From Trichoplax sp. H2 (lineage: Eukaryota), in NCBI GenBank assembly GCA_003344405.1, contig NOWV01000118.1:124001-188000 (forward strand): a stretch of DNA of 64,000 nucleotides. The letters are read 5' to 3'. How positions within the stretch are numbered: the stretch's first letter is position 1; every line of letters starts with the position of its first letter. Shown here in pieces: positions 27,778 to 58,100 of this stretch. Below the pieces are notes generated by a model. It had not been told where the DNA came from, did not search any database, and saw only the letters and a program-made list of their open reading frames with translations. A program made the translations under genes and the position numbers.

Positions 27778-30700
27778 CTATTGGCTTTGCTGATTAGCGA
27801 TATTTTGGGTATTATAAGCTGAATTATGACTAGTGGTAAAACCATTTCCGTTCTGATCGTAAAGAATATTTTGACTATTATGATTAGGTTCATCATATCT
27901 TATTTCTTGATTAACTTGATTAGGGTTTGTCGCATAGGCGTTACCATGCTTACCATAATCTAATTGCTGATTTACTTGATTAGGATCGATAGCATTGGTA
28001 TTGCCATGTTGATCATAAGTTACCTGCTGAGTATCTTGATTGCCACCTAATTCAGATACGTTACTGTTTCCATCATGCATTATTTGTTGCTGATAATCTT
28101 GACTATTATTATCGACAACATATGGATTGCCATGCTCATCGTAACCTGCAGGTTCAATAGCTTGATTAGGATTGATAGCATAAGCATTGCCGTGCTCATC
28201 ATAAGTTATGTGTTGATTTTCTTCATTCGATGGTTGTCCAAATCCATTACCTTGTGCGTCAGATGTTGCATAAGCATTACCATGCTCATCGTAGATAACC
28301 TGACTATCATCTTGATGAGCATCTGCAGTAAAAGCATTTCCGTGTTCATCATGAGTGATCTGTTGATCTTCTTGATGAGGATCTATGGTCGTATAAGCAT
28401 TTCCATGCTCGTCATAGGTAATCTGCTGACTGTCTTGGTAGGGATTTACGGTATAAGCGTTCCCATGCTCGTCATAAGTGATCTGCTGACCATCTTGGTA
28501 GGGATTTGCCGCCGTATAAGCGTTTCCATGCTCATCATAAGTAATTTGCTGACCGTTGTGACCTGGATCTGTACTAAAAGCGTTTCCATGCTCGTCATAA
28601 GTAATCTGCTGACCATTTTGTTGGGGATCTACGGCATAAGCGTTTCCATGCTCATCATAAGTAATCTGCTGATCATTTTGATGGGGATTTACGGCATAAG
28701 CGTTTCCATGCTCATCATAAGTAATCTGCTGATCATTTTGATGGGGATCTACGGCATAAGCGTTTCCATGCTCATCATAAGTAACCTGTTGACCATTTTG
28801 ATGGGGATCTACGGCATAAGCGTTTCCATGTTCATCGTAAGTAATTTGCTGATCATTTTGATGGGGATCTACGGCATAAGCGTTTCCATGCTCATCATAA
28901 GTAACCTGTTGACCATTTTGATGAGGATCTACGGTATAAGCGTTTCCATGCTCGTCGTAATGAATCTGTTGAGCCTCTTGATGGGGATCTACGGTATAAG
29001 CGTTCCCATGCTCGTCATAAGTGATCTGTTGGCCATCTTGATTCGTATCTACGGTATAGGCGTTTCCATGCTCGTCGTAAGCGATCTGCTGACCATCTTG
29101 ATGAGGATCGACGGCATAAGCATTTCCATGCTCGTCGTAATTGATCTGCTGGCCATCTTGATAGGGATCTACGTTATATGCATTTCCATGTTCATCGTAA
29201 GCAACTTGTTCACTCTGAGGATCTACTACGTATGCGTTATTGTGCTCGTCATAGGCAACATGTTGAGTATCTTGGTTCGACTCTGCGGCGTATGGATTGC
29301 CATGTTCATCATAAACGACATCGTGGCCATCTCCCTCTTGATTTATTGCATACGCATTGCCGTGTTCATCAGAAACAAGTCCTCTGTTTGATGGATCAGA
29401 ATTTTCAATACCACCATGTTCATCATTTGCTATTAATTGATCGTCTTGATCATGGTCTACTAAGTAAGCGTTGCCATGCTCATCATGAGCGACCATCTGT
29501 GGCTGCTGATCATGTTCATCATCAGCAATTTCCTCATTTGTCCTGTTGTCATTGGCATCATCGGGCTCATCATGGATTATTTCTTGCTGCTCATCATCAC
29601 GAATACGATCTTGTTCAGAGATGACAACATTACTTTCTGCTTCGTTATCGATCTGATCGTCATTATTTATGTCTTGCTCTTGATCTGCATGTTGGCTACC
29701 CTCAGTTTCTTGTCTGTTCTCGTCATCATCGTGAATGTTGGTAGGCTCATCCTCTGTCTTTTGATCCTCTTCATGTTCAGATTCATGACCTGAAAGTTGC
29801 CCTTCTTCGATCACTTTCTCTCCGTCGATGCCATGGTCTTCTTCAGTATTTATTTTCTCTTGCTCTTCATCCAAGTGTTTGCTATCATCGATTTCTTGTT
29901 CACCTTTGTCATCTTTATCATTTTCAGGTTCATCTCCTGTCTTTTGATCGATTTCACCTTCGGATTCATGACCTGAAACTTGACCTTCTTCCGTTGCTTT
30001 TTCGCCATCGGCATTTTGATCATCTTTAATTTCTTCTTCCTCTTCATTAGATTCATCTTCTGCCTTTTGGTCAGCCTCGCCTTCCGATGCATAATCTATG
30101 GGTTGCCCTTCTTCGATCGTTGCCTTACCATTGTCATCATGGTTAATTTCTTCTTGATCTTGATGAGATTCATCTCCTATCTTTTGATCGGCTTCGCTTT
30201 CAGATTCATGACCTGAACGTTGGCCTTCTTCAGTTGCTTTCTCACCATCAATGTTGTGATCATCATTATTTGTTTCTTCTTGCTCTTGATTGGATTCATC
30301 TTCTGCCTTTTGATCAGCCTCGCCTTCAGATTCATGATCTATGGGTTGCCCTTCTTCCGTAGCTGTATTACCATCGTCATCAGGATTAGTTTCTTCTTGA
30401 TGTTGATGAGATTCATCTTCTGTCTTTTGATCAGCTTCGCCTTCAGATTCATGACCTGGTAGTTGGCCTTCCTCGGTTGCTTTCGCACCATCAACGTTGT
30501 GCTCGTCATTATTTGTTTCTTCTTGCTCTTGACTAGGTTCATCTTCAGTTTTTCTATTGACTTCACCTTCAGACTCATGATCTGCAAGTTGTCCTTCTTC
30601 ACCATGATTAATTTCTTCTTGATGTTGATGAGATTCATCTTCTGTCTTTTGATCAGCTTCGCCTTCAGATTCATGACCTGAAAGTTGGCCTTCCTCGGTT

Positions 30701-33700
30701 ACTTTCTCACTATCAACGTTGTGCTCATCATTATTTGTTTTTTCTTGCTCTTGACTAGGTTCATCTTCAGCTTTTCCGTTGGTTTCATCTTCAGACTCAT
30801 GATCTGCAAGTTGTCCTTCTTCAACTGCTGTCTTATCATCGTCATTATTCATTTCTTCTTGATGTTGATGAGATTCATCTTCTGCCTTTTGATCAGCTTC
30901 GTCTTCAGATTCATAACCTGAAAGTTGGCCTTCCTCGGTTACTTTCTCACTATCAACGCCGTGATCATCATTATTTGCTTCCTCCTGCTCTTGACTAGTT
31001 TCATCTTCAGCTTTTCTATTGGCTTCGCCTTCAGATTCATGATCTGCAAGTTGTCCTTCTTCAACTACTGTCTTACCATCTTCATCATTATTCATTTCTT
31101 CTTGATGTTGATGAGATTCATCTTCTGTCTTTTGATCAGCTTCGCCTTCAGATTCATGACCTGGAAGTTGGCCTTCCTCGGTTACTTTCGTACCATCAAC
31201 GTTGTGCTCATCATTATTTGTTTCTTCTTGGTCTTGACTAGGTTCATCTTCAGCTTTTCCGTTGGCTTCGCCTTCAGATTCATGATCTGCAAGTTGTCCT
31301 TCTTCAACTACTGTCTTACCATCTTCATCATGATTCATTTCTTCTTCATGTTGATGAGATTCATCTTCTGCCTTTTGATCGGCTTCGACTTCAGATTTAT
31401 GACCTGAAAGTTGGCCTTCCTCGGTTACTTTCTCACTATCAACGTTGTGATCATCATTATTTGTTTCTTCTTGCTCTTGACTAGGTTCATCTTCAGCTTT
31501 TCCGTTGGCTTCGCTTTTTAACTCATGATCTGCAAGTTGTCCTTCTTCAACTGCTGTCTTACCATCTTCATCATGATTCATTTCTTCTTCATGTTGATGA
31601 GATTCATCTTCTGTCTTTTGATCAGCCTCGACTTCAGATTCATGACCTGAAAGTTGGCCTTCCTCGGTTACTTTCTCACTATCAACGTTGTGATCATCAT
31701 TATTTGTTTCTTCTTGCTCTTGACTAGGTTCATCTTCAGCTTTTCCGTTGGCTTCGCCTTCAGACTCACGATCTGCAAGTTGTCCTTCTTCAACTGCTGT
31801 CTTACCATCTTCATCATTATTCATTTCTTCTTGATGTTGATGGGATTCATCTTCTGTCTTTTGATCGGCCTCGACTTCAGATTCATGACCTGAAAGTTGG
31901 CCTTCCTCGGTTACTTTCTCACTATCAACGTTGTGATCATCATTATTTGTTTTTTCTTGGTCTTGACTAGGTTCGTCTTCAGTTTTTCTATTGGCTTCGC
32001 CTTCAGATTCATGATCTGCAAGTTGTCCTTCTTCAACTGCTGTCTTACCATCGTCATTATTTATTTCTTCTTGATGTTGATGGGATTCATCTTCTGTCTT
32101 TTGATCGGCTTCGACTTCAAATTCATGACCTGAAAGTTGGCTTTCCTCGATTGCTTTCTCAGCATCGTGGTTTATTTCCTCTTGCTCTTGATTATATTCA
32201 TCTGCCTTTTGATCAGCTTCACCTACAGATTCATGATCTATGGGTTGCCCTTCGTCGACTGCTGCCTTACCATCGTCATCATTATTAATTTCTTCTTGAC
32301 CTTGACGAGATTCATCGTCGGTCTGTTGATCGGCTTGGCCTTTAGATTCATGACCTGAAAGTTGGCCATCCTTACCATCAACGTTGTTTGTTTCCCCATG
32401 GTCTTGATTAGATTCTTCCGTCTTTTGATCCATTTCACCTTCAGATTCATGACCTACAAGTTGTTCTTCATCGGCTGCTTTATCACTATCAATGTTATGA
32501 CCATCACTGTTTATTTCTTCTTGCTGTTCGTCTAATTGTTGATTGCCATGCGTTTCTGCTTTAAAGTCAGCATTTTCTTGATCGTCTTTAGATTTGGCCT
32601 TTCGCTCAATTTCATGTTCAGATTCATGACCTTGGGCTATTTTCTCGCCATCAACATTATGATCGGCGTTAGCTAATTCTTCTTGCCCTTCCTCAACTGC
32701 ATTCTCTTGATCGACCTCACCTTCAGCTTCGTGACTTGAAACTTGCCCTTCTTCAATTGCTTTCTCTCTAGCGATCTCACCTTCAGATTCATGACTTAGA
32801 ACTTGCCCTTCCTCAGCTGCTTTCTCTCCATCGACCACGCTTTTAGATTCATGATCTAAAAGTTGCCCTTCCTCAACTGCTTTTTCCCGATCAAGCTCAC
32901 CTTCAGATTTATGAACTGAAAGCTGCTCTTCTTTGAGCGTTCTCTCATCTTCGATGTTATGACCGTCATTATTCATCTCTTCTTGCTCTTGATTTAATTC
33001 GTTTTCCGTCTTTTGATCTATTTCTCCTTCAGATTGCCCTTTCTCATAACTGGCGTTTTGATCATTATGAGATTCATCTTCTGCCTTTCGATCGACTTCG
33101 CCTGCAGATTCATGACCTGATAGTTGCTCTTTCTCAACTTCTTTCTCATCATTGATATTTTGATCATCATGAGATTCATCTTCTGCTTTTCCTTTGACTT
33201 CGCCTACAGATTCATCACTTGCCAGTTCTCCTTTCTCAATCATTTTCTCACCATCGTGGTTATGATCACCATGAGATCCATCATCTGCTTTTCCATTGAC
33301 TTCGTCTACAGATTCATAACTCGCCAGTTCTCTTCCCTTAATTACTTTCTCATCATCAACGTTATGATCATTATGAGATTCATTTCGATCGACTTCGCTT
33401 TCAGTTTCATGACCTGAAAGTGGCTCCTTCTCAGCTCCTTTCTCGTCATCGACGTTTTGATCATTATGAGATTCATTTTCTGCATTTCGATCGACTTCGC
33501 CTTTAGATTCATGACCTGAAAGTTGCTCTTTCTCGCTGTCGACATTAGTATCGCCGTTATTTATTTCTTCTTGCTCTTTCTCTAAATGCTGGCTGTCATC
33601 GGTTTCTTGTTTGACATTATCATTATTTTGATCGTTTATGGATTCATCTTGTGTCTCTCGATCCACTTCGTCATTGGATCCTTGACCTATAACTTGGTTT

Positions 33701-36700
33701 TCTTCCATTGCTTTATCATGGTCGATGTTATGATTATCATGATTTATTTCTCCTTGTTTGGCATTATCATGATCATTTACAGGTTCATCTTCCACCTTCT
33801 GATCGATTTTGCCTTCAGATTCATGAATTGAAGGTTGCCTTTCTTCGATTGCCTGCTCATCACTCATGCTATGGTTATCGTTATTTGTTTCTTGCTCTTG
33901 ATCTAAATGTGGATTGCTAACGGTTTCTTGCTTCACTTCGCTATTATTTGGATCATTTACGGTTTCATCTTCCGGTTTTCGATCCATTTCAACTTCATGA
34001 CTTAGAAGTTCTCCTTCTTCAGCTGCTGTCTCACTTTCCATGGCATGGTCGTCATTATTTATTCCTTGTTCTTGATCTAGTTGTTGGTTACTATCACTTT
34101 CTTGTTTAACTTGGGCATTACCTTGATCGTTTACGGGCATATCTTCTACCTTTGATTCTTCTTCAGCTTCATGACCTAAATTTTGCTCTTGCTCCATTTC
34201 TTTCTCATTTTTGGATTCATGATCGTCATGACTAACTTCCTGCTTTTGAGATAAATGTTGGCTATCATCGGTTTCTTGTTTAACTTCGTCGTGATCTTGG
34301 TCTCTGGCAGGTTCATCATCGGCTTTTCGACCGAAGTCGTCCTTCGATGCATAGTCTGAATTTTGCACCTCTTCGATTGCTTTCTCATCATCGACGTTGT
34401 GGTTCTTGTGATCCACTTCTTCTGGCTCTTGATCATAATGTTGGCTTGGATCGATTTCTTGCTTAACTTCATTATTATCTTGATCATTTGCAGGCACATC
34501 TTGTATCTTTCCATCCAATTTATCGTCAGATTCATGAACTGAAAGTTGTTTTTCTTCCATTGCTTCCTCTCTATCGATATTATGATCGTTATGGTTCATT
34601 TCTTCTTGCCCTTGATCTAAAAGGTGGCTGCCATCGGGCTTAACTTCGTCATGCTGATCTTTTGCGGCTTCATCTACCATCGTTGGATCTCCGTTGCTTT
34701 CTGGTTCATGGCTTAACGATTGCTCTTCAGTTGCCTTGCTATTAATTTGCTCTTGTTCTTGGTCTAAGGACTGGCTATCATCAGTTTCCTGGTTCGCTTC
34801 ATCGTTATGTTGATCCTTTACAGATTCTTCCATTTTTCGATCGGTTTTGGCTTCCGATTCATGACCTGAAGTTTGTTCTTGTTCATTATTGATGTTATGA
34901 TTGTTATAATTTATTTCTTCTGGTTCTCTATGCGAATATTGACTATCATCAATTTTTTGCTTGACTTCGTTATTACCCTGATCATTGACAGATTCTTTCA
35001 TCTTTACATCAACTTCGCCGTCCGATTCATGAGCTAAAGGATGTTCTTGCTCGAAAGCTTTGTCAGTACTAGCTGTATGATCATGACCGTCTGTTTCTCC
35101 TTGTTGTAAACGTTGGCTGCCATCGATCTCTTGTCCAACTTGGTCATTATTTTGATTATTTACAGGTTCATTTTCTATCGTTTGATCGACTTGACTTTGC
35201 AATTCATGGCCTACAAGTTGCTCTTGTTCCTTTGTTGTCTCATTATCAGCAATGTGATGATCATGATTGATTTTCTCTTGTTGTTGATTTAAACGTTGGT
35301 TATTGTCATTTTCTTTTTCAACTTTATCATAATCCTCTGTAGACCTATCGTCTACCTTTCGATCCACTTCACTTTCTGATTCATGATCAGATAGTTGCCT
35401 TTCTTCTACTGCTTTCTGATTATTGATAGATTGACTTTCTGGTCCTTTACTGTCTTGATTATTTACAGATTCGCCTTCTGCCTTTCCGTTGATTTTATTT
35501 CTCAATTCATCGGAAATTTGCTCTTGTTCAATTGCTGCCTTATTATTGCTACTATGATCTGTCTTCTCGATTTCTTCTTGAGTATTCTGGCTATCATTCA
35601 TTTCTTGCTTACTATGATCGTCTGCAGGTTTGCCTTCTAGATGATGATCCGAAAGCTCTCCTTGTTCACTCCTTTTCTTATCACTGGTAGCGTGATCATG
35701 ATTTCCTTCTTCACGTTCTTGTTCTAAATGTTGGTCGTCATTCACTTGTGGCTTGATTCCATCATCTTGATCATTTACATGTTGATCTTGCACCTTTCCA
35801 TTGGTTTCTCTATCCACTTCGTGACCAGAAGATTGGTGCTTTGCGATTCCATTTTCTTCATGGACGTCAAGTTTATCGCTCTTCATTTTTTCTTGTTCTT
35901 GATCTCCATGTTGGCTGTCGTTAAGTCCTTGATTAGTTTCATCATTTTGATCTTTATTGATGTTAAAATGGTCATTACTTCTCCCTTCTGGCTCTCGATC
36001 ACCTCGATCATTTATGGATTCATCTTCCGTTATTTGATCATGTCTAACTTTGCTAATTTCCTGAAATTTCTCTTCGTTCTCAGATTGCTGATTGGTATTT
36101 AAGTTATTCCTTTCTTCAAGGAGATTTTGTGTTGTTTGATGATTATTGTTATTCTCGACATCTTGAAGAACGGAACTTTTATCTGTTTCTACCTGCAACT
36201 CTTTCGATGGTTCGTTATTTTGACCATCTTTTTCAGTATTTTGTATTGGAATATCTCCTCTGGTTAGAGTCCCATCATTTAGACTATTATTATTATCTTG
36301 GCTCGTTAAATTTTTGTCGGTTGTCGTTACGTTTCCATCTTCATCTTTTTCTACAGTTCCGCTATCATAATACTGATTATGAAGAACTTGTTCAGTTTCC
36401 CTGCCTTGACTAAGAGTTACCTGGTTATCATTGGATTGATAACCATTGGCATCCTTCTTGTCATCTTCCCTTACCAGAGTTGAATCACCATCTTTAGATT
36501 GATCAATATCTTGATCAGTGGCTTCTTGGATATGTTTTTCAGCTGAAATTGGACTTGCAGCCTTTTGATTTGTAATCATGGTTGCGTCCTGGCTAGTATT
36601 CTCGTTTTGCAAGTTTGGGTGGCTCTCTTCTCCGGTACTAATTTCTCCTTGTTTACCCTCTTCAATGGCTTCATTATTAATAGTTGGATTGGCTTCGCTC

Positions 36701-39700
36701 TCTCTAGTGATGGCTCCATTTTCATTTATTTTATGCTCTTGCGAATTGAAGTGGCTACTGTCTCTAGTATCCATTTTGGTTTCGTTATCATCGATAGTAG
36801 TTTGATCCCTGTCTCTACTTTCGTATTGATCTATTCTATCTCTTGGTGTATTGAAATGGGTATTTTCTGCAGCATTAATTTCGGCTTCGTTACTATCGAC
36901 AGTGGTCTCGTCGACCATGATTTCATTAACATTACTATCCTTTGCTATGATCGATTCTACTTGCTCATCATTCGCTTGACCTGCCGTTTGATCTTGATTT
37001 ATTTCGTTATTTTTTGCTTGTATTTCCTCCTTCTCCATTGTTGATGGCTTACTATTAAGATTATCATCTTGATCTTTGCTCAATACTGAGTCTTTTTCTA
37101 TGTTCTTATTTTCTGCAACTATAGGCTGGTGATATCGACCTATTTCCTCGTCCCCAGGCAATGAGTGATCACTATTTAGTTTTTCTTCTTGATCATTTAC
37201 TTCCTGGTTGTTATTGTCATTAGTTGACTTGATGTCATCTTTTAGAGATTCGCTATTTTGATAGTGATCGATCTTGTCCTCACTTTCATTCTTCAAATTG
37301 TTTTTAATTCGATCTTGGTCAGGAACTTCTGTATTCAATTCCGATCGGTTCTCGATGGTACTGTTACTTTCTTCAATTTCATCCCTTCTATGTTGAGTTG
37401 AAATCAGTTTATCATCTGTCGAATCAATGGTGCTATCATCGATGCTCTCGTTTGCCTTAGCTATAATTTCGTTTTCTGCTACAAGTCTATTCGAATGATC
37501 ATCGGTAATATTGTTCTGATGGCTGTCTTGGGAAGCCAAATTATTTTTGTTGTCATCTGAAAATTTGTTCTCAATTTCTCCCTTCGCTGTAGATTCTTGA
37601 TCGGCCGGATGATTTTTGAATATTTCTTTCTTATCCTCATATGAACTATTTTCAGTGGTATTCTTATTAGTAATCATTCCTACATGAGCTTTGGGTAATA
37701 TTGAATCAGTAGGGATATTTATATTATCTCTAACACTCATTCTATCTGATGCTTTATCCTGGATAGGACCATCATGGCTTGCACTTTCTGTGCTTTGTTG
37801 CTCATTATCTTGATCTTGGATACTCTTTGTATCGTTAGGATGATCGTTACTTTGGCTAACGACAGGGGAATGCTCTTCCGTTCTCTGTGATAGATCTACT
37901 GCCATAGTTTGATCTTGTTGATCATCTGTGGATTGATTTTCTATTTTCTGCCCTACTTCAGCTACATTCACATCATGATTATTTTCTGTTTGGTCACTTT
38001 TTCCTTGCAATTGAAGTTGATCTTCTGAAACCTGATGAGATGACTGAAGTAAATTATTAATTGCTGTATTATCTTCTACCTTGGCTTGATGATCGTTTGT
38101 TTGGCTTTGATGGTCTTCTAAGATCTCATCGACTTTCGGAGAAGGTTCAGTAACATTTGACTGGCTGGAGAAGCTAGCGTTAGTAATGCTTTCAGTTTGA
38201 TCTCTATCTACAGCGTTGACTAATTCGTTGTCATGTAACTGCAGTAATTGCTCTTGATCTTCTTCAAGTTCGTTATGGCTGCCTTTCTCATCTGATATTT
38301 GAGAATTGACATTTTCAGAAGGCGTTAATGATGATCTCTGGTTATATCTAGCATCGATTTCTGCTTTTTCAGCTAATTCTGAAGTTTCAGCAGTTGCTTT
38401 TACGACATTTTCATTTGGTGGCGATACTACAGTATCCTCTTGAATGTTTTGGATATCCTCAGCGTTTGGTTCGGAAAGTTCTATATTGGAGTTATCTTTT
38501 TGGATGGTTTCGATTAGATGAGATTGATCATCATCACTATGATGCTCTATTTCTTTACCGGGAGATGATGAAGCAACGTTTGCTGACTCTTCCTCCTTTT
38601 TATGATTTATACTAGCACTCGGTAACACAGAATTATGATCCACTACATCAGAAGATCTATTTTCGGTTACAGCATTCTCCGATTCTTGATCGATTAATTG
38701 ATTGTGGAGATGACTTCCCTTAGCAGAACTATCAGATGCATCACCAATTTTAGTGTCCGTTTTAGGAGTGCTGACATAATGTACTTGTAAGTCTTCTTCA
38801 TTTTGATTGTTATTTACAGGCTTGAGGTCTTCATTGCCAGTTTCTGTGACAGGGACAACTGCTACGATGTTTTCCTTCGAATTTTGTTTCTTATTTGGAT
38901 CATGTTTCTGATCTTTCTTCTTATACTTTTCTGATTTTTTTCCTTCTTTATTAGTAGGCTTGCTACGTTCTGAGTTCGATCGAGTATCATCTGGTGGCGA
39001 ATTGCTGTTTGTTTGGGACTTTATTTGGTTCGTTGCCACTACATCATCGGGTTCTGATGATTTGTTGTCAGTAGCTTGTTCTACCCTTCTATCATTATCA
39101 TTATAACTTTTCTTATTTTCTACTGCTTCCTTTTTATCAGTAGCATTATTATCTTCTTTATCCGAGATTGTATCCGGTTGTAAGCTATCAGGTTTAAATG
39201 TTGCGGTATTCGCATCAGCCTTGTCTTCTATTCCTTGTGATGCTATCATCTCTGATGTAACCGCAGTTACATCTTCTATAATTTCTTCATTAATGCTTTG
39301 CTGATCGACAGACTGATGGCTTGATGCAGAAATTTTCTCATCAATTTCATCACTAGGCAAATTTGTTGCTATTTCTATACTAGCGGCTTCATTGTTAGAA
39401 ATTACGTCCTGTTGTAAGTTATCAGATTTTACTAATGTATTATTTGCATCAGTTTCATCATCTACAACCTGCGATACAACAGATGAAATATCATCTAAAA
39501 TTTCTTCTTGAATACTTTGCTGACCAACAGCCCCATAACTTGTTGGAACTTTCTCATCAATTTCTTGCTCACCAGGCAAATTTGGTGTTGTTTCTATATT
39601 ATTAACATCGATATTGGAGATTGCCTCTTGCTGTAAGTTATAAGATTTTACGGATACGTTATTTGCATCGCTTTCATTTTCTTGAGCTTGCGATGCAATA

Positions 39701-42700
39701 ATCTGTTTTGGTGGGACAGCTGATATGACTTCTAAAGTTTCCTCTTGAGCACTTTGCTGATCAGCAGCTTGATTACTCGATGTAGAAATCCTCTCATCTA
39801 CTTCTTGATCATTTGGCAAATTTGGTGTTGTTTCTATACTAATAGTATCATTATTAAATATTATATCCTCTTGTGAGTTACCGGATTTTACTGATGTATT
39901 ATTTGCTTTGAGTCCATCTTCTAGAACCTGCGATACAACCATTTGTTCCGGTGGAATAACTGATAAGGCTTCTATAATTTCTTCTCTACTACTTTGTTGA
40001 TCGGGACTCTGATGACTTGATGATATAGAAATTTTGTCATGTATCTCTTGATCACTAGCCAAATTTTCTTGAGCTATCTTGATGGGGTTTTGATCCATTT
40101 CTTGATCAATAATATCTGCATCGAACGCCTTAATCATACTATCTTCTTGGTTATGTCCATTAGTATTATCGACTTCAGGACTTTGCTCTTCAATTTCATC
40201 TTCATATGAGTTTTCACTGTCTGATCTACTGCCAACTGAAAAGGATTCCATAGAAGGTTCAAGAATGTCTTCAACGCTATCTTGACTTCGTGCTGTAATT
40301 AAATTTGTGGAATCGTCAGTGATTAAAGTAGTACCTGCTGTTTGGCTCTCTGCTTCATCAGCTTCATATTTTGTTCCTGCAAGAGCTGCTTTATAGCTTT
40401 CGATCAATTGGGAATCGTTCACATTTTGTTCCGTAGTAATGCTGTTTCCCAATTCAGAACCATTTTTAGCATTCTGGTCCATTGTATTTGCGAATATTTC
40501 CTTATTATCTTGAGCGTCGATATCGCTATCACTCATATTTGCTGATTTTTGTAATGGAAGAAGATCCATTAATGATTCACTAGCAACAGCAACGACTGGA
40601 TGGTTTTGTGATTCTAGAGTAACCTCAACTCCTGGGATGATTGGCTCTTGAGATGACTCGATGCCATGTTCAGTTTTTGTCAATTCTACTTCATTAACAA
40701 GTTCTACAGTTGATGGATAGTCATCTTCATTTTGATCGAGCTTTTGGTAGTCTAAGGTAATCTCTTCGTCTTCATCTAACACTTTACTGGCATTTGGCTG
40801 ACTTAACTGATCGTCATTTTGGGGTAACTCCGCCGAATTAGTAAGCTCTATGTTTGATGGGCCATTATTAATGCCTTGGTCGTGTGATAAAGTTATCACA
40901 TTTTCGTTTTCACTTATCGCTGTAGTTGTATCGGCATGACTTAACTGATCTTTGTTCAATTCTCGATCTATCTGCATATTGATAATATTCATATCTTGTT
41001 GGGTGGAGGCAACGGAAGCTTCACTGATTGCTATTTCATTTTCATCGTATGATGCTTCGGCACCGTTAAGTACATTTTGATTTATATCCTTATTCCTGTG
41101 AGTCTCACCTGAATTGCTATTAACATTATCTGAATTACTAAATACAGTTAGTTCTGTTGACTTTAAGTCATCATTATTGATACTAGATTGAGTAATGGCA
41201 TTATTTACAACGTGATGATAATGTTCTATTATTGCTGATTTCTTAATTTCAAGGACATCAATGAAAGCTTTCATCATTATTGAATTAGCTTGCCTATTTG
41301 CAAATTCATAAATTAAAGGTGATAATTTAGACCTTACTGTGGGTAAGTCAGTACTAGTATTTGTAGGTAACGGATTATTCTTGCTTTCTGCCTGATCGTA
41401 ATCATTATTGGTTTTCATTACATCAATAATTGCTCTCATAATAACTAGATTTGCTTGTCTATTAGCAAAGTTATCAATGATGTTAGAAACGCTTTGCGGC
41501 ATTATATTGCTTTCGTTATTCTGAATATCTGATGGCGGTGGAGGGTTCTTTTCTTCTGCTAAATCACTATCACACTGCACGGCAGTATCTGTAGTGATTG
41601 GCTTATGTTGATTAGCAACTTCATTTTTAACGCTACGATGATTACGTAGAGTTTCGTTATGACTACTGTAATATTCATCTCTTGCTGCTGATGATCGTCT
41701 AGATGCTTCATCCATACTAGAATCGGAATAACAACTTGATAACTGCTTTCCTCTGCCTTTGAGTCTTCGCCGACTATACTTGGATCGCTTCGATTTATCT
41801 GTTTTTGGTGGCGATGGAATAAAGGAGTGATTAGAACTATTATCAAGTAGCCTTGATGCTCGATCATCGCTAACATCATCAGATACAATACTATTATCGA
41901 CGCTTTTGGTCATCGGTACGCCTTCTTTCTGAACTTGTTCATTTCCTGATGTAGTATGCAGAGTTCGGCGATGACGTAAATTAGCTGACTTTGGACGATT
42001 CATTGATGAAGGTGGAACTGGTTGGATAGGACGGTCTTCTAAACTTGACAAGGATGAGAGACTCTTATCACTACGTGCTGAATTTGGCCTCCATCTTGAA
42101 TTATTGGATGAGAAATTAACAGTCTTGTATGCATCTTGATCGTTAGATTGGCTTTGCTGTACTTGCGCTAATAACTGATTCCAGTCTTGCTCTTTAGTTA
42201 ATTGACCGTTATAACTTAGCGATGGTGGTGGTATTTCAGGACCGATTAAATTAGCAAGATGTTGTAGTTTGTCGCTTTCCTTACTAATATCAAACCTTGT
42301 GTCTGTTGATAGCTCGGTTCTTAGTCCCGAGTTAGAATATAAGCTGTGGCTATTGACTGTCCATGGTCGCTCTAGTGGAATTGCGTATGGCGATAATTGC
42401 TCACGCTCAAGTAATGATCGAGTTCCCTTATCACGTTTATCGTCATACTATAAGAGTAATATAGAATAATTATTATAAAAATTAAATTTTCCAGGTAATA
42501 TAACGAATTCATGTTCTTGTTAGAAGAGCCTACGCTTTTGTGTAATGATAAATTATCCATTCTATACACATTACAGCATCAAGCCTAACCATTTTGATAC
42601 ATATCAGAAAGGGTTGAGTTGTTAGGCAAAGAGGTTAATAAAAAAAGTACTCCTATTGAACTATCTCAATTAGATGTTAAAAGATCAAGTACATTTGACA

Positions 42701-45456
42701 TCAACGAAGTCCAAATATTTCGATGCAAATTGTGATCGATCGGAAGTTAAGGTGAAGGATAAATTTGCAACATGTTGTGTTGTTATAAGAGCAAGCTACT
42801 GAAGTATTTCTTGGTATTCCATGCAGATAATTTTTATTAATTTTCTTGGCATAAAATAAAATAAGTTATTGCCACACCAGTATTACTAGAGTATGTAGAT
42901 GCTATGTAATGACTATATGGACATTTAAATTACGTAAGTTATCTTTGTTATTCTTACCTTATTATGTTTTCGAGACAACGGCGCTGTTTTGGCTATAATT
43001 GCCGTAATAATGAGACATTTTCACGTTAGAGTGTTATTTTATTTCGTAAACAGCATTAACCTTTCAGATTGCTAGCATGTTAGATAGAATACAAACCTCG
43101 AGCAATATCATCCGATGTTCTATAACCTTTTCGTGACATTTCTTGAGATGTTCTGTTGTAAGGTGTTGTAGGTAAGACTAAAAAAATGATTTTCATTTTT
43201 TTAACTGATTTAAATAATTAAATTTAATTTGTAATTCACTTGTAAGCAAGGATAATATGAAAGACAGACAGAAATGACCAGTTTAATTAATTATTACCTG
43301 AACCGTTATAAAATTGAATAGTGAAGTTGGTAGGATTGAATGGTTCTTCACCCACAGCAATAAAAATATTTCCCTCGTTGAATAGATCGATAACAGACGT
43401 AATCTATAAATGCGATAATTGACATTATCAATAATACTGGATTGACAGAAATGATATAAATTTAGCAGTCTAGTTTCTATGTGATTATATTACTGTATAA
43501 ATAGGTAGACATGCTACGGTAAGAAAAAGCTAATAATTATCAAATATTAATTAAATGGAAAAAATTTGCAGGAAATGACTTAGAGTTTCATCCGTTGATG
43601 ATCAAACACTGTTAAATTTCCATTACATCACTTTGTTGGATACGCATTAGCTGATCTTTGTATGATAAATATGAAGACAGGTAACTTCCTACCGGAGATT
43701 TGAAACTACGTCCAGTACTAATTTAAGTAAATTAGCGCTGGCCAAAATCATACTCATCCTATCGCCATATTACTTATACAATTGAATGCTTACTAGTAGC
43801 TCATTAGTATACCGTCTAGGAATACTTTTCGTTTATGCTGATTAAGTATTCCAATATGAAACGGCGATGAGCTTTAAAAAGTATCGGCGATAGTTCTAAC
43901 GATTGTCTACGTGATTTTATTCAAAACAAATTAGAAAGTAATTGTAACGATTAAGGCAAATTTTTATAGTAAAATTTAGAAAAGGATAATAGTCATAAAT
44001 GATTCTTTAAATATAAAAAATGGAAAAGTTATTAATACTTGCTATACTGATTATGATCTATTTACTTGTTCACCTTGAATACATATACACTTAATAAAAT
44101 ATACTATTGATACTATTTGAACGTTGTTTTCTATTTTTTTAAAGAATATATGGAATACTGTACAGTATGAACTTCTGATTGTTATTTTTCGTTATCATGA
44201 ATGTACCTTCTAAACACTAAATCGTTCTACAATATGGGGCATACGCATACGTTAATATTATATATTGTATAGAAGCAAGGCGTCAATAATTTTAATTTAC
44301 GATAGAATATTGGAAAAATTTTAAGCATCAAATCTACACTATTATATCTTAAAATTTAACTTCTAGCAAAACTATGTTGTAAACCAATTACAGTTCCAAA
44401 ATAGATTTAACAAATTGACTGTAACCTTCATCAGTTGATGAGTAATCGCTATTCTATCAAATTGGAAATTGGTTGATACTTAAAATTAAGTTACTGATTG
44501 GAAGTGGATTGCTAAAAATTAATCAATTTGTAATTATATCAATGACTACCCTAAGAATGAGCTCTACGCGACATGTAAATCGTCGCTTTTTAATTTTTAA
44601 AAATCAAATTATGGTCATTATTAGTATGGAACTCGCTGTCAATGATATAAAAGTGGGTGTAATTGAATTGGCAAGATACGTGTATTTTATTTACCTTTTT
44701 CCCATTTGGTGTAAACAATTTATCGATAGGGCGAAAGAATGTTTGACGATCATGGCGTAATTCAAAATTGGAATTAAGTTCATAAAGTATCCGATGAAAG
44801 TTGTTGCTTGTACGATGATTAAGTAGTAAATTGATAAATTCTTGTGGCGATGGACCGTGACGAACAATTTTAACAATTTTAGCTTTTTTAGCAAATATTG
44901 TTTTAGAATTAGGATCTTTCGATTGGGGTGGACTAGGTCCAGAATTGTTGGATGGCTGTTGTAACCCAGCTGATGTTAGACTACTGGTCTGATCTAAATC
45001 AACAACACGTTGATTAAGATCGATCATATTACCACTAGCGAATGGATCTGGCGTTAAGAATGATGTAGAACGATTTCGATCATTAACCACATCCAAATTA
45101 TTATTGCTGATACGTTGATATTGGCTTTTACGACGAGCTGATTGGGCTGGTCGAACACCAGCACCTAATTCGGCTAATTCACGATCGAATGAGCGCATAT
45201 GATCAGTCGATATAACAGCAGAACCATTAGCATATCTTTTCGTATGATAGCGATGGACACGCCGTCGGTCATTGCCTGAATTGGTGCTATAATCATCGTC
45301 ATAGAGATCACGAAGTATTGGATCCAGTTGAGTTAATTTATCCAGCCTAATATCGCCTTGATCAGAAGGTGTTGAGCGACGAAATGATCCTCGCCGGCTA
45401 CTTTTATCATCGTCATAAGCTGATAAAGATAATTCGAAACTAACTTCACGAGACAT
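27778..45456 (-). CDS. Giant (about 5,217 aa) doublecortin-domain protein with acidic repeat tail, RP1/RP1L1-like architecture
   Basis: Five coding exons with canonical GT-AG sites and consistent phase: 45456-44695, 43403-43298, 43177-43097, 42992-42958, 42447-27778. The DCX domain spans exons 1-2: KAKIVKIVRHG...RTSNNFHRILYELN...PIDKLFTPNGKK|ITSVIDLFNEGNIFIAVGEEPF. The last exon is 14,670 nt of uninterrupted frame and includes the 4757-aa ORF. Confidence 0.8.
27830..29490 (-). repeat. Coding tandem repeat, 60-nt/20-aa unit QQITYDEHGNAYAVDPHQNG, about 25 units
   Basis: Column-aligned 60-nt periodicity at about 28560-29160, degenerating toward both ends. Confidence 0.95.
29700..36000 (-). repeat. 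Coding higher-order repeat: 240-243-nt (80-81 aa) dimer of ~40-aa EEGQLxxHESExE units, grading into degenerate HES-core units
   Basis: EEGQLSGHESEVEADQKTEDESHQH alternates with EEGQLADHESEGEANGKAEDEPSQE at about 29950-32350. Looser copies continue to about 36000. Confidence 0.92.
39200..40060 (-). repeat. Coding degenerate repeat, about 4 copies of a ~70-aa unit (DEKIS...DQQS..EE....SQ..ED...AN...VKS.NLQQ)
   Basis: Visible in the translation of the giant ORF. Confidence 0.75.
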
Positions 45457-55149: not shown

Positions 55150-58100
55150 TCATACAATTCGATGCAACTGAGCTCTCATAATACTACGTGGAACTCCTTT
55201 AGTTGATTCAACGAGATTGGATTCACAGCGTTTAAATGGTCCACCTTTAGAAGTAGAATTAAATCGACCAGGACGCATTGCTGAATTATTTATACCTGCT
55301 GCCGTTACAGTCGATTTAATTCTCGACATGTACAGTTCATCACCTAATATTTCGAAATAATTCAACTTAGCATATAGAAATTGCAGACGTTATATTTCAT
55401 AACCTTGCCTATTAAAATTTTAAAGTTATTTAAGCTACTGAAATGATTGATTGACATTACCTAATAGCGACATTATTGGTATTTTATATAAGGCACACGA
55501 ATTTAATCGTTGTGTTACTACGCCTTGAGAGCTATTCGAACCAATAGAAGCTGATCGTGTTGGTAGTGTTGCGAAATAGATGTCAAACTACAGGAATTAG
55601 GCAGTAAAACATTACAATCCGTTCATTATATAAAAGCATCTACTGCAATCTAAATTTATAAGCAGTGGGCTCGTAGTGTTAGTTTCTATTACAGTTATAT
55701 TTTCCTTAATACAAATTTAGATTTATAGCAGCATCATGGATCGATGAATTAAAAATGAATTATATGCTAAACTGCTTCAATTTGCTAGCTAGTTTACATT
55801 GACTTTGAGATGAATAATGACAAGAATAGTCTACTTAATTATCACAATCATTATTCATTTAAAGCTATAGAAATTCTTTCCACAACGACAGTAAAAGATG
55901 ATGACATCTCTTAAATTAGTGAACGAATAACGCAGTCAGTCAGATATTACCTTGGATGTAATAAACTGAATTTCTGGAAATGTAATAGCTTGAACCAAGC
56001 ATCCATTAACGACCAATCTGATTTCGATATAATTTAATGCAAATCCCAACAAATATGGATAAGCACAAACTGAAATGTAACAATTTATAATATTAACTAG
56101 TAATCAGTCAAAGATGGCACTAATCTATTAAATCTGGCTTAATTTAACAGAACGATCTAAATCTTTCCTGTGCATTGACTGACAAGCTAGCTACTTTACC
56201 GATATAAAGTGGTGGATGATTCCAGTAGTAACTGCTGATATATGAAACTTCTCGACCAAGTCCAAGGAGGAAAGAAACATCTAAATTATCAAAAAATAAG
56301 AGCAAATAATATGTTAAAAGGTTAAGAATTTACAACGGTAGCACAATTCGATGTAAATGACAAATTAAATTAACATTTACACTACTAAGTTTATATTGCA
56401 TTCGATAGATATGACTATTTTATTTCATCGACTTACGATTGCCAGTCAGGAATACTTCCGGCTTACCAGCTTCATCATAAACATTGACCGGATTAACTAA
56501 GTTGATGGCCTATGTTAAGAAAATTACAAGTAAGTTACCGAGATTCAGAGAAATGGCAAGAAAAGAAATAAAATTCTGAAATTGATCTTACTATGTAATC
56601 GAGTATTGAAATAGAAATCTATCTTTAGTTGTCAGTACTTACCTTCTTTTTATGACGTTTCTTAGATTTGACTTCTTCAAACTAATATTAAGAATTGAAA
56701 TTGTGGTTAATGTTACAATAAATTGTGTTATTATCTTCAAAATTATTTCAATTTTTCTATATTAATAATATGTATAGTTTCTTTTACGTTTTAAAATATC
56801 TGAATATTACGGTTTTCATCAGAGTTACAACGTTTGCTCAATTTCGCCTTTTAAAATAGAATTCATATAGAGATAGCTACCTGTCCGAACGCCTCTAATC
56901 GATGGACCTTTTTGATATCGCCAGTTGATTCCTCGATAATTTCAAAATGTTCTTTATAGCCAACACAAATTAGATCCGATTCGGGTTGATGCCCACTCGC
57001 CACCGATATTAACGTCGGCTCTTGACCGAGCGAAATATCCTGTATGAAATTTCAACCGTTATTTATAGTAATAATGATTAAGCAATACCGATTTAGGTGT
57101 TTTCCTCTACTTATTAATATCGCCTTCAAGATAGTTGCTTCGAGACTAATTTACCTAATAGTTAAGTATTTATAGCATAGAGTACAACTATTTATTAACG
57201 AAAGCTACGGAATGTATGCCCTTATAGAAGCTAACCGTTGCTAAATAATAGATTTTAAATGCATTGGAGACCTAAAGTACCATTTGAGTGCATTATGTTA
57301 TAAGACTACTTTATCGATTACCGTACGAAATATAACAATATTTTAAGACTATATTACTTAATATATTCCTTTTCATCATAGAATAATAAAGGCCAATACT
57401 ACTCTAATGTAACAGAGCATAATTGGTCAAGAATACATCAATTTATTTTAGTAAATCTCATGTAGGGCGGCACTTAACCCTTGATCAAAATATTTCTTTC
57501 GTTGTAGTAGCTAAGTTTACGCAATGTGCTCAAGAAATACCTGAGATTTAACAAATCGTTCAATCAAGTCTTGCGGCGATATTTGAAGCCTGTGTTCAAA
57601 TTCATCTAACCCACTTAGCGTTAATATGATTATACGTGCCTTGATTGCCACAGCTACTTTAAGAACGCCATCTTTACTTTGGTTAACTGCATATAAATGG
57701 CAACCTGTTATGTACGGAAAAGTTAGCTAAGCGAATTCCATGCGTTTTCGATTTATTCTTACTTATTGTCTACCTATCATATATGTAAGGTCCATTTTGT
57801 ACAATGCAATTTAATGATATTAGATCTAATCATAAATATTTTTTATAATCTTACCGCGAGTTATCTCTAATCGCCCATCTTTAATGACATCAATTCCTTT
57901 AATTATCGTTGTGCTTGTTTTGTCTCCAACGAATTCATTCAGCATAACAATATACAAGTATTGCCGGGTATCTTTTCCTGCATTAGATCAAATATTAGTG
58001 ACTTGAATTAGAAAGAAGTAATAAAAATTTCTATTTTGGTTAGTAGTTTTTTCGATATTTCACGATCCATTATAGATATTCTTATTGTACAAGTCATAAG

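What the first reader, a model, noticed from the sequence alone, without database searches (positions are those of the whole stretch)
41251..41481. Two tandem AKAP-like amphipathic helices resembling RI-selective PKA anchors
Seen: within otherwise disordered sequence lie two similar hydrophobic helices, IIDNFANRQANLVIMRAIIDV and LIYEFANRQANSIMMKAFIDV. The N-terminus has PKA-consensus sites RRGS (45385-45396) and RRKS, with RRSS nearby. Known: the RI-selective anchoring peptide RIAD is LEQYANQLADQIIKEATE, the same [FY]ANxxAxxI pattern, and axonemal D/D-domain proteins (ropporin/RIIa, DPY30 clans) also bind such helices. Inference: the protein docks PKA or another D/D-domain protein on microtubules. 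The Gln at a normally Leu position is atypical.
Basis: partly seen in the sequence, partly recalled or inferred. Interest (0 to 1): 0.75.

Follow-up and report, generated by a model that had tools for sequence, protein, structure and literature searches.

The report
Twin AKAP-like docking helices, placozoan protein
A giant, mostly disordered Trichoplax protein carries two conserved copies of a short helix whose residue pattern matches the helices that anchor protein kinase A type I, but no binding test or comparison with related species could be run.

Summary
Both helices lie on the minus strand (41419-41481 and 41254-41316), 55 residues apart, in a 4,889-codon open exon (27778-42447) of Trichoplax adhaerens.

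For an anchoring role:
- They are the best internal match in the N-terminal 900 residues (score 66 against 37.8±3.5; 0 of 200 shuffles).
- They share 13 of 21 residues, 5 through synonymous codon changes. The flanks share 1 of 34.
- Both fit the published type-I AKAP helix pattern: F-A at positions 1-2, hydrophobic residues at 7 of 8 face positions, and hydrophobic 17-18.
- Both show six ΦΦXX units with a 4-residue period.
- AlphaFold2 predicts both as helices (pLDDT about 70).
- Upstream same-strand exons encode a DCX domain and three RRx[S/T] sites.

Against or missing:
- Gln sits at face position 5 in both copies.
- The Pfam SmAKAP match is below threshold and fragile (16 bits against a cut-off of 27).
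- No homologue was found anywhere, so conservation is untested.
- No D/D-domain sequence could be obtained, so binding is untested.

Verdict: a plausible new anchoring protein for PKA-RI or another D/D-domain protein. Confidence is about 0.4 for D/D docking and about 0.25 for PKA itself. It would be a new member of a known kind, of moderate interest.

The parts
41416..41481 (-). Helix 1. The 21-mer of the finding is 41419-41481. The 18-mer numbered from the F-A dipeptide (FANRQANLVIMRAIIDVM) is 41416-41469.
   Evidence: Searches give the sequence and position. AF2 predicts a helix at fragment 37-76 with pLDDT about 70. ΦΦ places are 11/12 hydrophobic over six ΦΦXX units.
41251..41316 (-). Helix 2. 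The 21-mer of the finding is 41254-41316. The 18-mer from F-A (FANRQANSIMMKAFIDVL) is 41251-41304.
   Evidence: Searches give the sequence and position. AF2 predicts a helix at fragment 87-145. ΦΦ places are 11/12 hydrophobic. A sub-threshold Pfam SmAKAP match covers this helix.
41317..41418 (-). A 34-residue polar, proline-containing linker between the helices (MKTNNDYDQAESKNNPLPTNTSTDLPTVRSKLSP).
   Evidence: Sequence. pLDDT is low at fragment residues 78-83.
27778..42447 (-). Giant open exon of 4,889 codons from stop to stop. It is acidic and low in complexity, and holds both helices near its 5' end. The true 5' splice acceptor is uncertain: 42447, 42371 or 42038.
   Evidence: The frame is open for 148 codons upstream of its first Met, so it needs an upstream exon (inference).
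44695..45456 (-). Putative exon 1. It starts at ATG 45456, carries RRGS, RRST and RRKS, and holds the first about 43 profile positions of a DCX domain. Its donor is AAG|GTAAAT.
   Evidence: (DCX PF03607, E=1.2e-4, 22.5 bits against a cut-off of 22, profile 1-43 of 60).
43298..43403 (-). Putative exon 2, which would encode the rest of the DCX domain (ITSVIDLFNEGNIFIAVGEEPF...). Its acceptor is TTTATAG| and its donor is CAG|GTAATA, ending in phase 1.
   Evidence: Read by eye only: Pfam gives no hit for this 38-aa piece alone.
45370..45396 (-). Adjacent PKA-consensus sites RRGS (45385-45396) and RRST (45370-45381).
45124..45135 (-). PKA-consensus site RRKS.
   Evidence: Exon 1 has 3 RRx[ST] sites against 0.50 expected; 25 of 2000 shuffles reach 3.
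41689..41700 (-). PKA-consensus site RRSS, 73 residues upstream of helix 1. It is the only RRx[ST] site in the 4,889-aa exon.
   Evidence: There is no enrichment here: 1 observed against 0.31-0.44 expected.

Best explanation
The two helices are duplicated docking helices of the AKAP type. Each would lie in the groove of a dimeric docking/dimerization (D/D, RIIa-clan) domain. The F-A start makes the type I regulatory subunit of PKA the favoured partner.

The helices sit in a giant acidic, disordered Trichoplax adhaerens protein. Its N-terminal exons appear to encode a DCX (tubulin-binding) domain and a cluster of RRx[S/T] sites. The protein would then hold up to two R-subunit dimers on microtubules, as SKIP does at mitochondria. 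The anchored kinase could phosphorylate the RRx[S/T] cluster beside the DCX domain.

Shown:
- The helices exist and are predicted helical.
- They are a diverged duplicate with the helix selectively retained.
- They match the published type-I pattern.
- A DCX match lies upstream on the same strand.

Inferred:
- The exons belong to one gene.
- The helices bind a D/D domain.
- The partner is PKA-RI rather than another D/D protein.
- The protein sits on microtubules.
- The RRx[S/T] sites are used.

The confidence of 0.4 is for docking to some D/D domain. About 0.25 of it is for a PKA regulatory subunit.
For: 1. Pattern. Both helices have F1-A2, hydrophobic residues at 7 of the 8 published face positions and hydrophobic 17-18. 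They are the only 2 such sites in 4,889 residues. Shuffles of the first 900 residues give at least one site in 5 of 500, and shuffles of the whole exon in 0 of 200. The definition is from PMC12083921 section 5.

2. ΦΦXX units. Each helix has six consecutive units with 11 of 12 Φ places hydrophobic; 6 of 500 shuffles reach 11. This is the pattern described for D/D-binding helices in PMC3494852 (passages). The hydrophobic moment peaks at a 4-residue period: 0.55 and 0.54 at 90°, reached by 2.3% and 0.9% of shuffles.

3. Selective retention after duplication. The helices share 13/21 residues, the flanks 1/34 (p=1.6e-6). Five of the 13 identical residues use different synonymous codons. Nucleotide identity is 45/63 in the helix against 29/75 in the 5' flank.

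4. Predicted helices with pLDDT about 70 between low-confidence flanks.

5. The only Pfam family to appear for the region is SmAKAP, an RI-specific AKAP. It covers helix 2 at profile positions 49-77 of 97, with E=0.025 and 0.019.

6. Tandem type-I helices have a precedent in SKIP, and AKAP220 also has two helices (PMC12083921 passages).

7. A DCX domain lies upstream on the same strand. Exon 1 is enriched in RRx[ST]: 3 against 0.50 expected, 25 of 2000 shuffles. A phase-compatible splice path links exon 1, exon 2 and the giant exon.

8. The organism is a metazoan: a neighbouring ORF is 100% identical to T. adhaerens TRIADDRAFT_53306. PKA RI and RII are placed at the metazoan ancestor (PMC12083921 section 4). 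A T. adhaerens SPA17 D/D protein is named in a figure legend of PMC8339350.
Against: 1. Gln occupies face position 5 in both copies, with the same CAA codon. A polar residue sits in the middle of the docking face.

2. The polar residues N3, R4, Q5, N7 and D16 are identical in both copies. PMC12083921 says the polar face of AKAP helices is less conserved. Identical polar residues hint at contacts beyond a one-sided docking face.

3. Extra hydrophobic residues at the 'XX' places (L8, M11, I15; 3-4 of 12) make the C-terminal half hydrophobic on more than one face. The Eisenberg moment at 100° is unexceptional: 0.254 and 0.227, and about 50% of shuffles reach it.

4. The SmAKAP match is well below the curated cut-off (16.1-16.5 bits against 27). 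It appears in 2 of the 5 query framings that contain helix 2 and vanishes with the 40-, 47- and 56-aa fragments. Helix 1 alone gave no match.

5. No AKAP peptide was matched in the PDB by sequence or by a two-sequence profile.

6. The simple motif is not specific. Six-frame translation of the window gives 9 other matches in 49,266 residues, all uniformly hydrophobic non-coding-looking strings.

7. No homologue was found, so conservation is unknown.

8. PMC12083921 places RI-selective AKAPs at the vertebrate base, so a placozoan one runs against the current picture.

9. The pattern was noticed after the fact by a reader scanning for it.
Confidence: 0.4

Rival explanations
1. The helices are a duplicated short helical binding motif for a partner that has no D/D domain, such as a cytoskeletal, transport or signalling protein. 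The fit to the AKAP pattern would then be coincidental.
For: - Five polar residues (N3, R4, Q5, N7, D16) are invariant between the copies. This suggests sequence-specific contacts around more of the helix than an AKAP face uses.
- Gln sits at face position 5.
- Hydrophobic residues occur at 3-4 of the 12 'XX' places.
- No AKAP family or PDB AKAP peptide is matched above threshold.
- Most conserved helices in disordered proteins are not D/D ligands (general knowledge).
Against: - It names no partner and predicts nothing specific.
- It does not explain the joint occurrence of F-A, Ala at 2, 6 and 13, six ΦΦXX units and hydrophobic 17-18.
- No other Pfam family appears for the region.
Confidence: 0.35
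2. The helices dock a D/D-domain protein that is not PKA. Candidates are a ropporin/SPA17-type R2D2 dimer, an R1D2 protein such as TPGS1, or a DPY-30-domain protein. The protein would then be an architectural scaffold on microtubules or cilia, as RSP3 is in radial spokes. This case is nested within the 0.4 given to D/D docking.
For: - RSP3 uses two similar helices to hold RIIa- and Dpy-30-domain proteins and does not anchor PKA in vivo (PMC3494852 and PMC8339350 passages).
- Metazoans carry a full set of PKA-R-like D/D proteins, and T. adhaerens SPA17 is named in a figure legend.
- Dpy-30 and RI share the N-terminal helix that deepens the pocket, so an 'RI-type' helix need not mean PKA.
- A DCX domain lies upstream.
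Against: - The F-A motif is documented as a determinant for RI specifically (PMC12083921 sections 5 and 14).
- The RRx[ST] cluster in exon 1 fits a kinase being nearby.
- No D/D protein is encoded among the 142 of 203 window ORFs of at least 55 aa that were scanned. That says little either way.
Confidence: 0.15
3. The two helices pack against each other as an intramolecular hairpin, or against copies of themselves. They would form a small folded or oligomerising core in an otherwise disordered protein.
For: - Two long predicted helices are joined by a short loop.
- The C-terminal halves are hydrophobic on more than one face.
- Duplicated helices often pair.
Against: - The hydrophobic period is 4.0 residues rather than the 3.5-3.6 of coiled coils and ordinary amphipathic packing. 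The moment at 100° is no better than shuffles.
- The model's pTM is 0.26, so no confident tertiary packing is predicted.
Confidence: 0.15
4. The similarity is a remnant of a tandem duplication with no function, in a fast-evolving low-complexity gene.
For: - The exon is full of tandem repeats.
- No homologue is available to show conservation.
- The gapped self-alignment test was not significant.
Against: - Identity is concentrated in the helix: 13/21 against 1/34 in the flanks, p=1.6e-6.
- Synonymous differences occur at 5 of the 13 identical residues, and nucleotide identity in the flank is 29/75. The duplication is therefore old, and the helix was kept while the rest drifted.
Confidence: 0.05

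Closest known systems
SKIP/SPHKAP (mitochondrial type-I-selective AKAP with tandem RI-binding helices)
   Same: It has two type-I (F-A motif) helices in one large protein and is thought to hold more than one PKA holoenzyme (PMC12083921 passages).
   Different: - No sequence homology was detected.
- SKIP is described as arising in vertebrates and targets mitochondria.
- Here the helices are 55 residues apart and are clear duplicates of each other.
- Here the targeting module would be a DCX domain.
smAKAP (small membrane AKAP, Pfam PF15127)
   Same: - It is RI-specific, with an aromatic-Ala dipeptide at the start of the helix that is required for RI binding (PMC12083921 section 14).
- It is the only Pfam family that helix 2 touches.
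   Different: - The score of 16.1-16.5 bits is far under the 27-bit cut-off, and the match depends on how the query is framed.
- The Pfam model is 97 positions long, whereas this protein has about 5,000 residues.
- This protein is not a member.
RSP3 (radial spoke protein 3)
   Same: One microtubule-associated scaffold carries two similar ΦΦXX helices for D/D-domain proteins (PMC3494852 passages).
   Different: - RSP3's two helices bind different domain types (RIIa and Dpy-30) and are not near-identical duplicates.
- No RSP3 family match appeared in the Pfam scans of the region.
- RSP3 lacks a DCX domain.
MAP2 (microtubule-bound AKAP)
   Same: The concept is the same: a microtubule-associated protein with a PKA-anchoring helix and long disordered regions. 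MAP2 is listed as type-II selective in PMC12083921. Its microtubule binding is recalled from general knowledge.
   Different: MAP2 prefers RII and has one helix. It binds tubulin through tau-type repeats rather than a DCX domain (recalled).
RIAD (synthetic RI anchoring disruptor peptide, as quoted in the finding)
   Same: Aligned by eye from its Y-A dipeptide, 5 of 15 positions are identical to each helix, and position 1 is aromatic in both. For helix 1 the identities are A2, N3, A6, I10 and A13. For helix 2 they are A2, N3, A6, I9 and A13. PMC12083921 notes that RIAD carries a Y-A motif.
   Different: - RIAD has Leu where both helices have Gln (position 5), and its opposite face is more polar.
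- The RIAD string was taken from the finding and was not verified against a source.
Apicortin of T. adhaerens (XP_002111209; partial p25alpha domain plus DCX domain)
   Same: It is a single-DCX-domain protein in the same species (passages of PMC7048138 and PMC12189498).
   Different: Apicortin requires a partial p25alpha domain before the DCX domain. No p25alpha match was found in exon 1 at E up to 10. The two sequences were not compared directly.

Membership tests
AKAP (functional class) | A 14-18-residue helix with hydrophobic residues at positions 2, 5, 6, 9, 10, 13, 14 and 17 (PMC12083921 section 5), also described as ΦΦXX repeats (PMC3494852). | tested here: met
   Each helix has 7 of the 8 face positions and 11 of 12 Φ places over six ΦΦXX units. 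Both are predicted helical. The misfit is Gln at position 5 in both.
AKAP (functional class) | Amphipathicity: one hydrophobic face and one polar face. | tested here: inconclusive
   The moment at 100° is no better than shuffles: 0.254 and 0.227, and about 50% of shuffles reach it. At a 90° period it is 0.55 and 0.54, reached by 2.3% and 0.9% of shuffles. Three to four of the 12 'XX' places are hydrophobic.
AKAP (functional class) | Direct binding of the helix to the D/D domain of a PKA regulatory subunit. | not testable with these tools
   No eukaryotic D/D sequence could be obtained.
AKAP (functional class) | A separate targeting module that places the complex in the cell. | tested here: inconclusive
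   Pfam DCX scores E=1.2e-4, 22.5 bits against a cut-off of 22, covering profile 1-43 of 60 in an upstream exon. The remainder was read by eye in a second exon, which gives no Pfam hit alone. The junction to the helix exon is inferred.
Type-I (RI-preferring) AKAP helices | F or Y at position 1 and Ala at position 2 (the 'FA motif', 97.7% conserved). | tested here: met
   Both helices have F-A.
Type-I (RI-preferring) AKAP helices | Hydrophobic side chains favoured at positions 17 and 18. | tested here: met
   Helix 1 has V-M and helix 2 has V-L.
Type-I (RI-preferring) AKAP helices | Measured preference for RI over RII. | not testable with these tools
   This needs binding assays or complex prediction with T. 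adhaerens RI and RII D/D dimers.
smAKAP (Pfam PF15127) | A score at or above the Pfam gathering cut-off of 27 bits. | tested here: not met
   The scores are 16.1 and 16.5 bits (E=0.025 and 0.019) with the 110- and 151-aa fragments. There is no hit with the 40-, 47- and 56-aa fragments that contain helix 2, and none for helix 1 alone.
Apicortin | A partial p25alpha domain N-terminal to the DCX domain. | tested here: not met
   The Pfam scan of exon 1 at E up to 10 lists only DCX and a weak RNA_pol_Rpb5_C match.
Any protein family with detectable sequence relatives | A homologue found by sequence search. | tested here: not met
   - 0 hits at E up to 0.001 among 1.84 billion representative proteins for the 482 N-terminal residues.
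- None of 69 candidates at E up to 1 for residues 170-290.
- None of 1,568 candidates for exon 1.
- The source species' own protein was not found either, so this says nothing about conservation.

The most novel reading that the evidence does not exclude
A placozoan builds a giant microtubule-bound scaffold with two type-I (F-A motif) anchoring helices, and each recruits a PKA-RI dimer. Isoform-selective, multivalent PKA anchoring would then predate bilaterians. It would not have arisen at the vertebrate base as currently drawn. The DCX domain next to a cluster of PKA sites would be a built-in substrate that tunes microtubule binding.
Probability: 0.2. Interest if true: 0.65.

Novelty: new member of a known kind. 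Interest (0 to 1): 0.45.

Why it matters
AKAPs are defined by a convergent helix rather than by homology, so new ones are found only by pattern plus experiment. The recent evolutionary survey PMC12083921 lists only OPA1, dAKAP2 and AKAP28 at the metazoan base, and places RI-selective and dual-helix AKAPs at the vertebrate base.

If binding were confirmed, a placozoan protein with two F-A helices and a tubulin-binding domain would:
- add an early-branching, lineage-specific AKAP;
- show that the F-A determinant is older than thought;
- give a simple system, with no neurons or muscle and with ciliated epithelia, for asking what anchored PKA or other D/D proteins do on microtubules.

Separately, this 4,889-codon exon has no counterpart in the protein libraries searched, although another protein of the same species is present there. 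The gene may be missing from current annotation.

Tried and rejected
- Homodimer prediction of the 110-aa helix fragment, 2 copies: 'no answer' (score 0.01 against a mark of 0.32; controls not run). This is no evidence either way.
- Homologue searches found nothing:
  - exon 1 against proteins of 505-2000 aa;
  - the 482 N-terminal residues of the giant exon against 1.84 billion representatives;
  - residues 170-290 against proteins of 2616-8325 aa.
- ESM Atlas, named clusters only: no usable hit.
- PDB sequence search with the fragment: only Lsr2 at E=1.7. With a two-helix profile: STIV B204 ATPase and Rav2 at E above 1. All irrelevant.
- Pfam on short fragments (40, 40, 47 and 56 aa): no family. 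Pfam on putative exon 2 alone: none.
- The gapped local self-alignment shuffle test was not significant. It was replaced by an ungapped window test.
- The hydrophobic moment at 100° was not exceptional.
- I recalled a published regular expression for RII-binding helices. The literature search did not find it, so it was not used.
- The Trichoplax deep-proteome paper (PubMed id 23360999), which might hold peptide evidence for this ORF, is not in the library.
- The supplement of PMC12083921 yielded figure legends only, with no helix sequences.
- Apicortin was considered and rejected for lack of a p25alpha domain.
- Considered by eye only and set aside: a calmodulin-binding helix (net charge only about +1, and the 1-8-14 anchor spacing fails in helix 2) and a nuclear export signal.
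- Not used: fold search of the AF2 model (pTM 0.26 is too low to be meaningful), the bacterial/archaeal genome collection (irrelevant to an animal gene), and the closed metagenome and viral collections.
- Searches for prior description, seen as listings only:
  - 'doublecortin domain' with 'A-kinase anchoring' gave 5 papers, none about such a protein by title.
  - 'Trichoplax' with 'AKAP' gave 16 papers, none on a placozoan AKAP of this kind by title or abstract start.
Full report
**What is there.** The finding's interval lies on the minus strand inside a very long open frame. That frame is 27778-42051 from the tool's first start codon (4,757 aa) and 27778-42447 from stop to stop (4,889 codons). 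Translation contains both quoted peptides:
- IIDNFANRQANLVIMRAIIDV at residues 191-211 (window 41419-41481);
- LIYEFANRQANSIMMKAFIDV at residues 246-266 (window 41254-41316).

The two F residues are 55 residues apart, joined by a polar, proline-containing linker. The exon is 44% D/E/N/Q and only 0.6% Phe, so the helices are hydrophobic islands. AlphaFold2 on residues 150-300 without an alignment gives mean pLDDT 61.8 and pTM 0.26. It predicts two helices (fragment 37-76 and 87-145) at pLDDT about 70, with flanks under 50. Single-sequence models tend to over-extend helices, so only 'helical here, unconfident elsewhere' is taken from this.

**Is it more than chance?**
- The pair is the best ungapped 21-residue self-match in the first 900 residues. 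Its BLOSUM62 score is 66, against shuffles of 37.8±3.5 with a maximum of 48; 0 of 200 reach it.
- A gapped local-alignment version of the test was not significant (74 against 61.7±10.2; 37 of 300). Biased composition lets gapped alignments score highly.
- The helices share 13 of 21 residues, while the ungapped flanks (17 residues on each side) share 1 of 34 (Fisher p=1.6e-6).
- At the DNA level the helix is 45/63 identical and the 5' flank 29/75. Five of the 13 identical residues use different synonymous codons.

The duplication is therefore old enough for silent sites and flanks to have drifted, and the helix was kept. This within-gene conservation is the only conservation evidence available.

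**Organism and gene.** A neighbouring ORF (14663-15562, plus strand) is 100% identical over 98% of its length to Trichoplax adhaerens TRIADDRAFT_53306. Other exons in the window match animal-type or general eukaryotic domains: MAJIN-like (below cut-off), uDENN (below cut-off), CNH and Rap_GAP.

Upstream of the giant exon on the same strand, an ORF starting at ATG 45456 (P0002) carries RRGS, RRST and RRKS. It matches Pfam DCX at profile positions 1-43 of 60 (E=1.2e-4, 22.5 bits against a cut-off of 22). The proposed splice path is as follows:
- A donor AAG|GTAAAT ends that exon at 44695.
- A small exon at 43403-43298 follows a TTTATAG acceptor. It reads ITSVIDLFNEGNIFIAVGEEPF..., which by eye completes a DCX domain. 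Pfam does not score this 38-aa piece alone.
- Its donor CAG|GTAATA leaves phase 1. Phase-compatible acceptors exist inside the open frame at 42371 and 42038. The strongest-looking acceptor, at 42447, is phase 0.

The junction is therefore unresolved. The giant frame is open for 148 codons upstream of its first Met. In DNA of about 33% G+C that argues the frame is spliced to upstream coding sequence. One gene holding DCX, the helices and the acidic repeats is the simplest model, but it is inferred.

**Fit to a published definition.** I scored the helices against PMC12083921 (abstract and sections 4, 5, 6 and 14 read; further passages by search) rather than against remembered peptides. That paper states:
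- the docking face is positions 2, 5, 6, 9, 10, 13, 14 and 17;
- type-I AKAPs have F/Y at 1 and a nearly invariant Ala at 2 (97.7%);
- hydrophobic residues are favoured at 17-18.

Numbered from the F, helix 1 is F1 A2 N R Q5 A6 N L V9 I10 M R A13 I14 I D V17 M18. Helix 2 is F1 A2 N R Q5 A6 N S I9 M10 M K A13 F14 I D V17 L18. Each has the F-A motif, 7 of the 8 face positions and hydrophobic 17-18.

These are the only two such sites in the 4,889 residues. Shuffles of the first 900 residues give at least one site in 5 of 500, and shuffles of the whole exon in 0 of 200. As a caution, six-frame translation of the whole AT-rich window yields 9 other matches in 49,266 residues. All are uniformly hydrophobic strings, so the rule alone is not specific.

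PMC3494852 (passages) describes D/D-binding helices as three or four ΦΦXX units. Here six consecutive units have 11 of 12 Φ places hydrophobic in each helix, and 6 of 500 shuffles reach 11. The hydrophobic moment is unexceptional at 100° (0.254 and 0.227; about half of shuffles reach it). It is high at a 4-residue period (0.55 and 0.54 at 90°; 2.3% and 0.9% of shuffles). That periodicity fits ΦΦXX and argues against an ordinary coiled coil or a 3.6-period amphipathic helix.

**Database resemblance.** The only Pfam family that appears for the region is SmAKAP (PF15127). It covers helix 2 at profile positions 49-77 of 97.
- It scores E=0.025 (16.1 bits) with a 110-aa query and E=0.019 (16.5 bits) with a 151-aa query. 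The cut-off is 27 bits.
- It disappears with the 40-, 47- and 56-aa queries that contain helix 2.
- The 40-aa query holding helix 1 alone gave no match.

This is a lead, not membership. PDB sequence and profile searches find no AKAP peptide. The ESM Atlas gives nothing usable.

**No relatives.** No protein matched at E up to 0.001 among 1.84 billion representatives for the 482 N-terminal residues. None of 69 candidates matched for residues 170-290. None of 1,568 candidates matched for exon 1. Another T. adhaerens protein from this window is present in the sister collection, yet the species' own copy of this region was not returned. The gene is probably unannotated, and the blanks say nothing about conservation. 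Other placozoan genomes could not be reached, because the open genome collection is bacterial and archaeal and the others were closed.

**Kinase sites.** Exon 1 has 3 RRx[ST] sites against 0.50 expected, and 25 of 2000 shuffles reach 3. The giant exon has only RRSS, which is no enrichment. This is modest support for a PKA substrate region beside the DCX domain.

**Mechanism and rivals.** The best specific reading is that each helix docks a dimeric D/D domain, with the F-A motif pointing to PKA-RI. The DCX domain would place the complex on microtubules. SKIP provides the precedent of tandem type-I helices, and AKAP220 also has two helices.

Weighing against this reading:
- Gln at face position 5 in both copies.
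- Invariant polar residues N3, R4, Q5, N7 and D16, whereas AKAP polar faces are described as less conserved.
- Extra hydrophobic residues at L8, M11 and I15.
- A sub-threshold and fragile family match.
- The post-hoc nature of the pattern.
- The published view that RI-selective AKAPs arose in vertebrates. An invertebrate RI-binding AKAP (Angelo and Rubin 1998) is cited in PMC3494852. That it is the C. elegans protein is partly my recollection.

A non-PKA D/D partner is a live alternative, because RSP3 holds RIIa- and Dpy-30-domain proteins rather than PKA. A T. adhaerens SPA17 is also named in a figure legend.

My confidence figures are:
- D/D docking of any kind: about 0.4. Of this, about 0.25 is for PKA-R and about 0.15 for a non-PKA D/D protein.
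- A different, unidentified partner: 0.35.
- Self-packing: 0.15.
- Neutral remnant: 0.05.

**Comparison and novelty.** The locus works like a dual-helix, type-I-style AKAP (SKIP) on a microtubule-binding chassis (the MAP2 concept). It is not a detectable member of any AKAP sequence family, of smAKAP, of RSP3 or of apicortin; no p25alpha domain was found. AKAPs arise convergently, so a confirmed case would be a new member of a known kind. Literature searches, seen as listings only, found no DCX-domain AKAP (5 papers) and no placozoan AKAP of this type (16 papers). Interest is moderate at 0.45. The pattern match is good and the phylogenetic position is interesting, but binding, selectivity, conservation and the gene model all remain untested.

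Noticed in passing
window 27778-42447 (minus strand): This 4,889-codon open exon has no match in 1.84 billion representative proteins. A neighbouring T. adhaerens protein is present in the sister collection. The gene, or at least its 5' part, seems to be missing from public protein sets.
   Followed up: partly
window 29929-32367 and 28270-29201 (minus-strand coding): Two large tandem arrays lie inside the exon. One is a 243-bp (81-aa) acidic unit in 10.2 copies at 86% match. The other is a 60-bp (20-aa) unit in 15.4 copies at 82% match, encoding YDEHGNAY...-type repeats near the C-terminus. Further arrays lie at 32682-32914 and 33039-33534.
   Followed up: partly
window about 39288-39984 (minus strand): Four repeats spaced about 73-80 residues apart each hold an acidic helix-like segment beginning EE[IT][IL][ED], for example EEIIEALSVIPPEQ. 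Two contain Pro-Pro. None fits the 7-of-8 AKAP face rule.
   Followed up: no
window 42447, 42371 and 42038 (minus strand): The best-looking splice acceptor, at the very start of the open frame (42447), is phase 0. The putative upstream exon ends in phase 1. Phase-compatible acceptors lie at 42371 and 42038. An extra small exon or another donor may exist.
   Followed up: partly
window 45370-45381 (minus strand): A fourth PKA-consensus site, RRST, lies one residue after RRGS (SSRRGSFRRSTPS).
   Followed up: yes
window 14663-15562 (plus strand): This ORF is 100% identical to T. adhaerens TRIADDRAFT_53306, an 'uncharacterized protein'. It has a sub-threshold Pfam MAJIN match (20.3 bits against 27, profile 7-176 of 238), so it may be a meiotic telomere-anchoring protein homologue.
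   Followed up: partly
window 55939-56103 and 60710-60892 (minus strand); 20525-20707 (plus strand): Exons match CNH (27.8 bits) and Rap_GAP (42.4 bits) on the minus strand, which suggests a Rap-GAP gene with a CNH domain. A uDENN-like exon (20.7 bits, below cut-off) lies on the plus strand.
   Followed up: no
window 8075-8701 (minus strand): This ORF contains KKKRVTWASEPNLTRFRYFELDESERVNV. From memory this resembles the PP1-binding region of PNUTS-type proteins. Pfam gave only a weak ATG14 match. The next ORF, 7201-8025 (minus strand), ends in RGG repeats.
   Followed up: no
window 17985-18004: A run of 20 N, which is an assembly gap.
   Followed up: no
window 13509-14176 (both strands): Long open frames on both strands have repetitive 'YSTV/LYCTVQY'-like translations, which suggests a simple-repeat region rather than a gene.
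   Followed up: no
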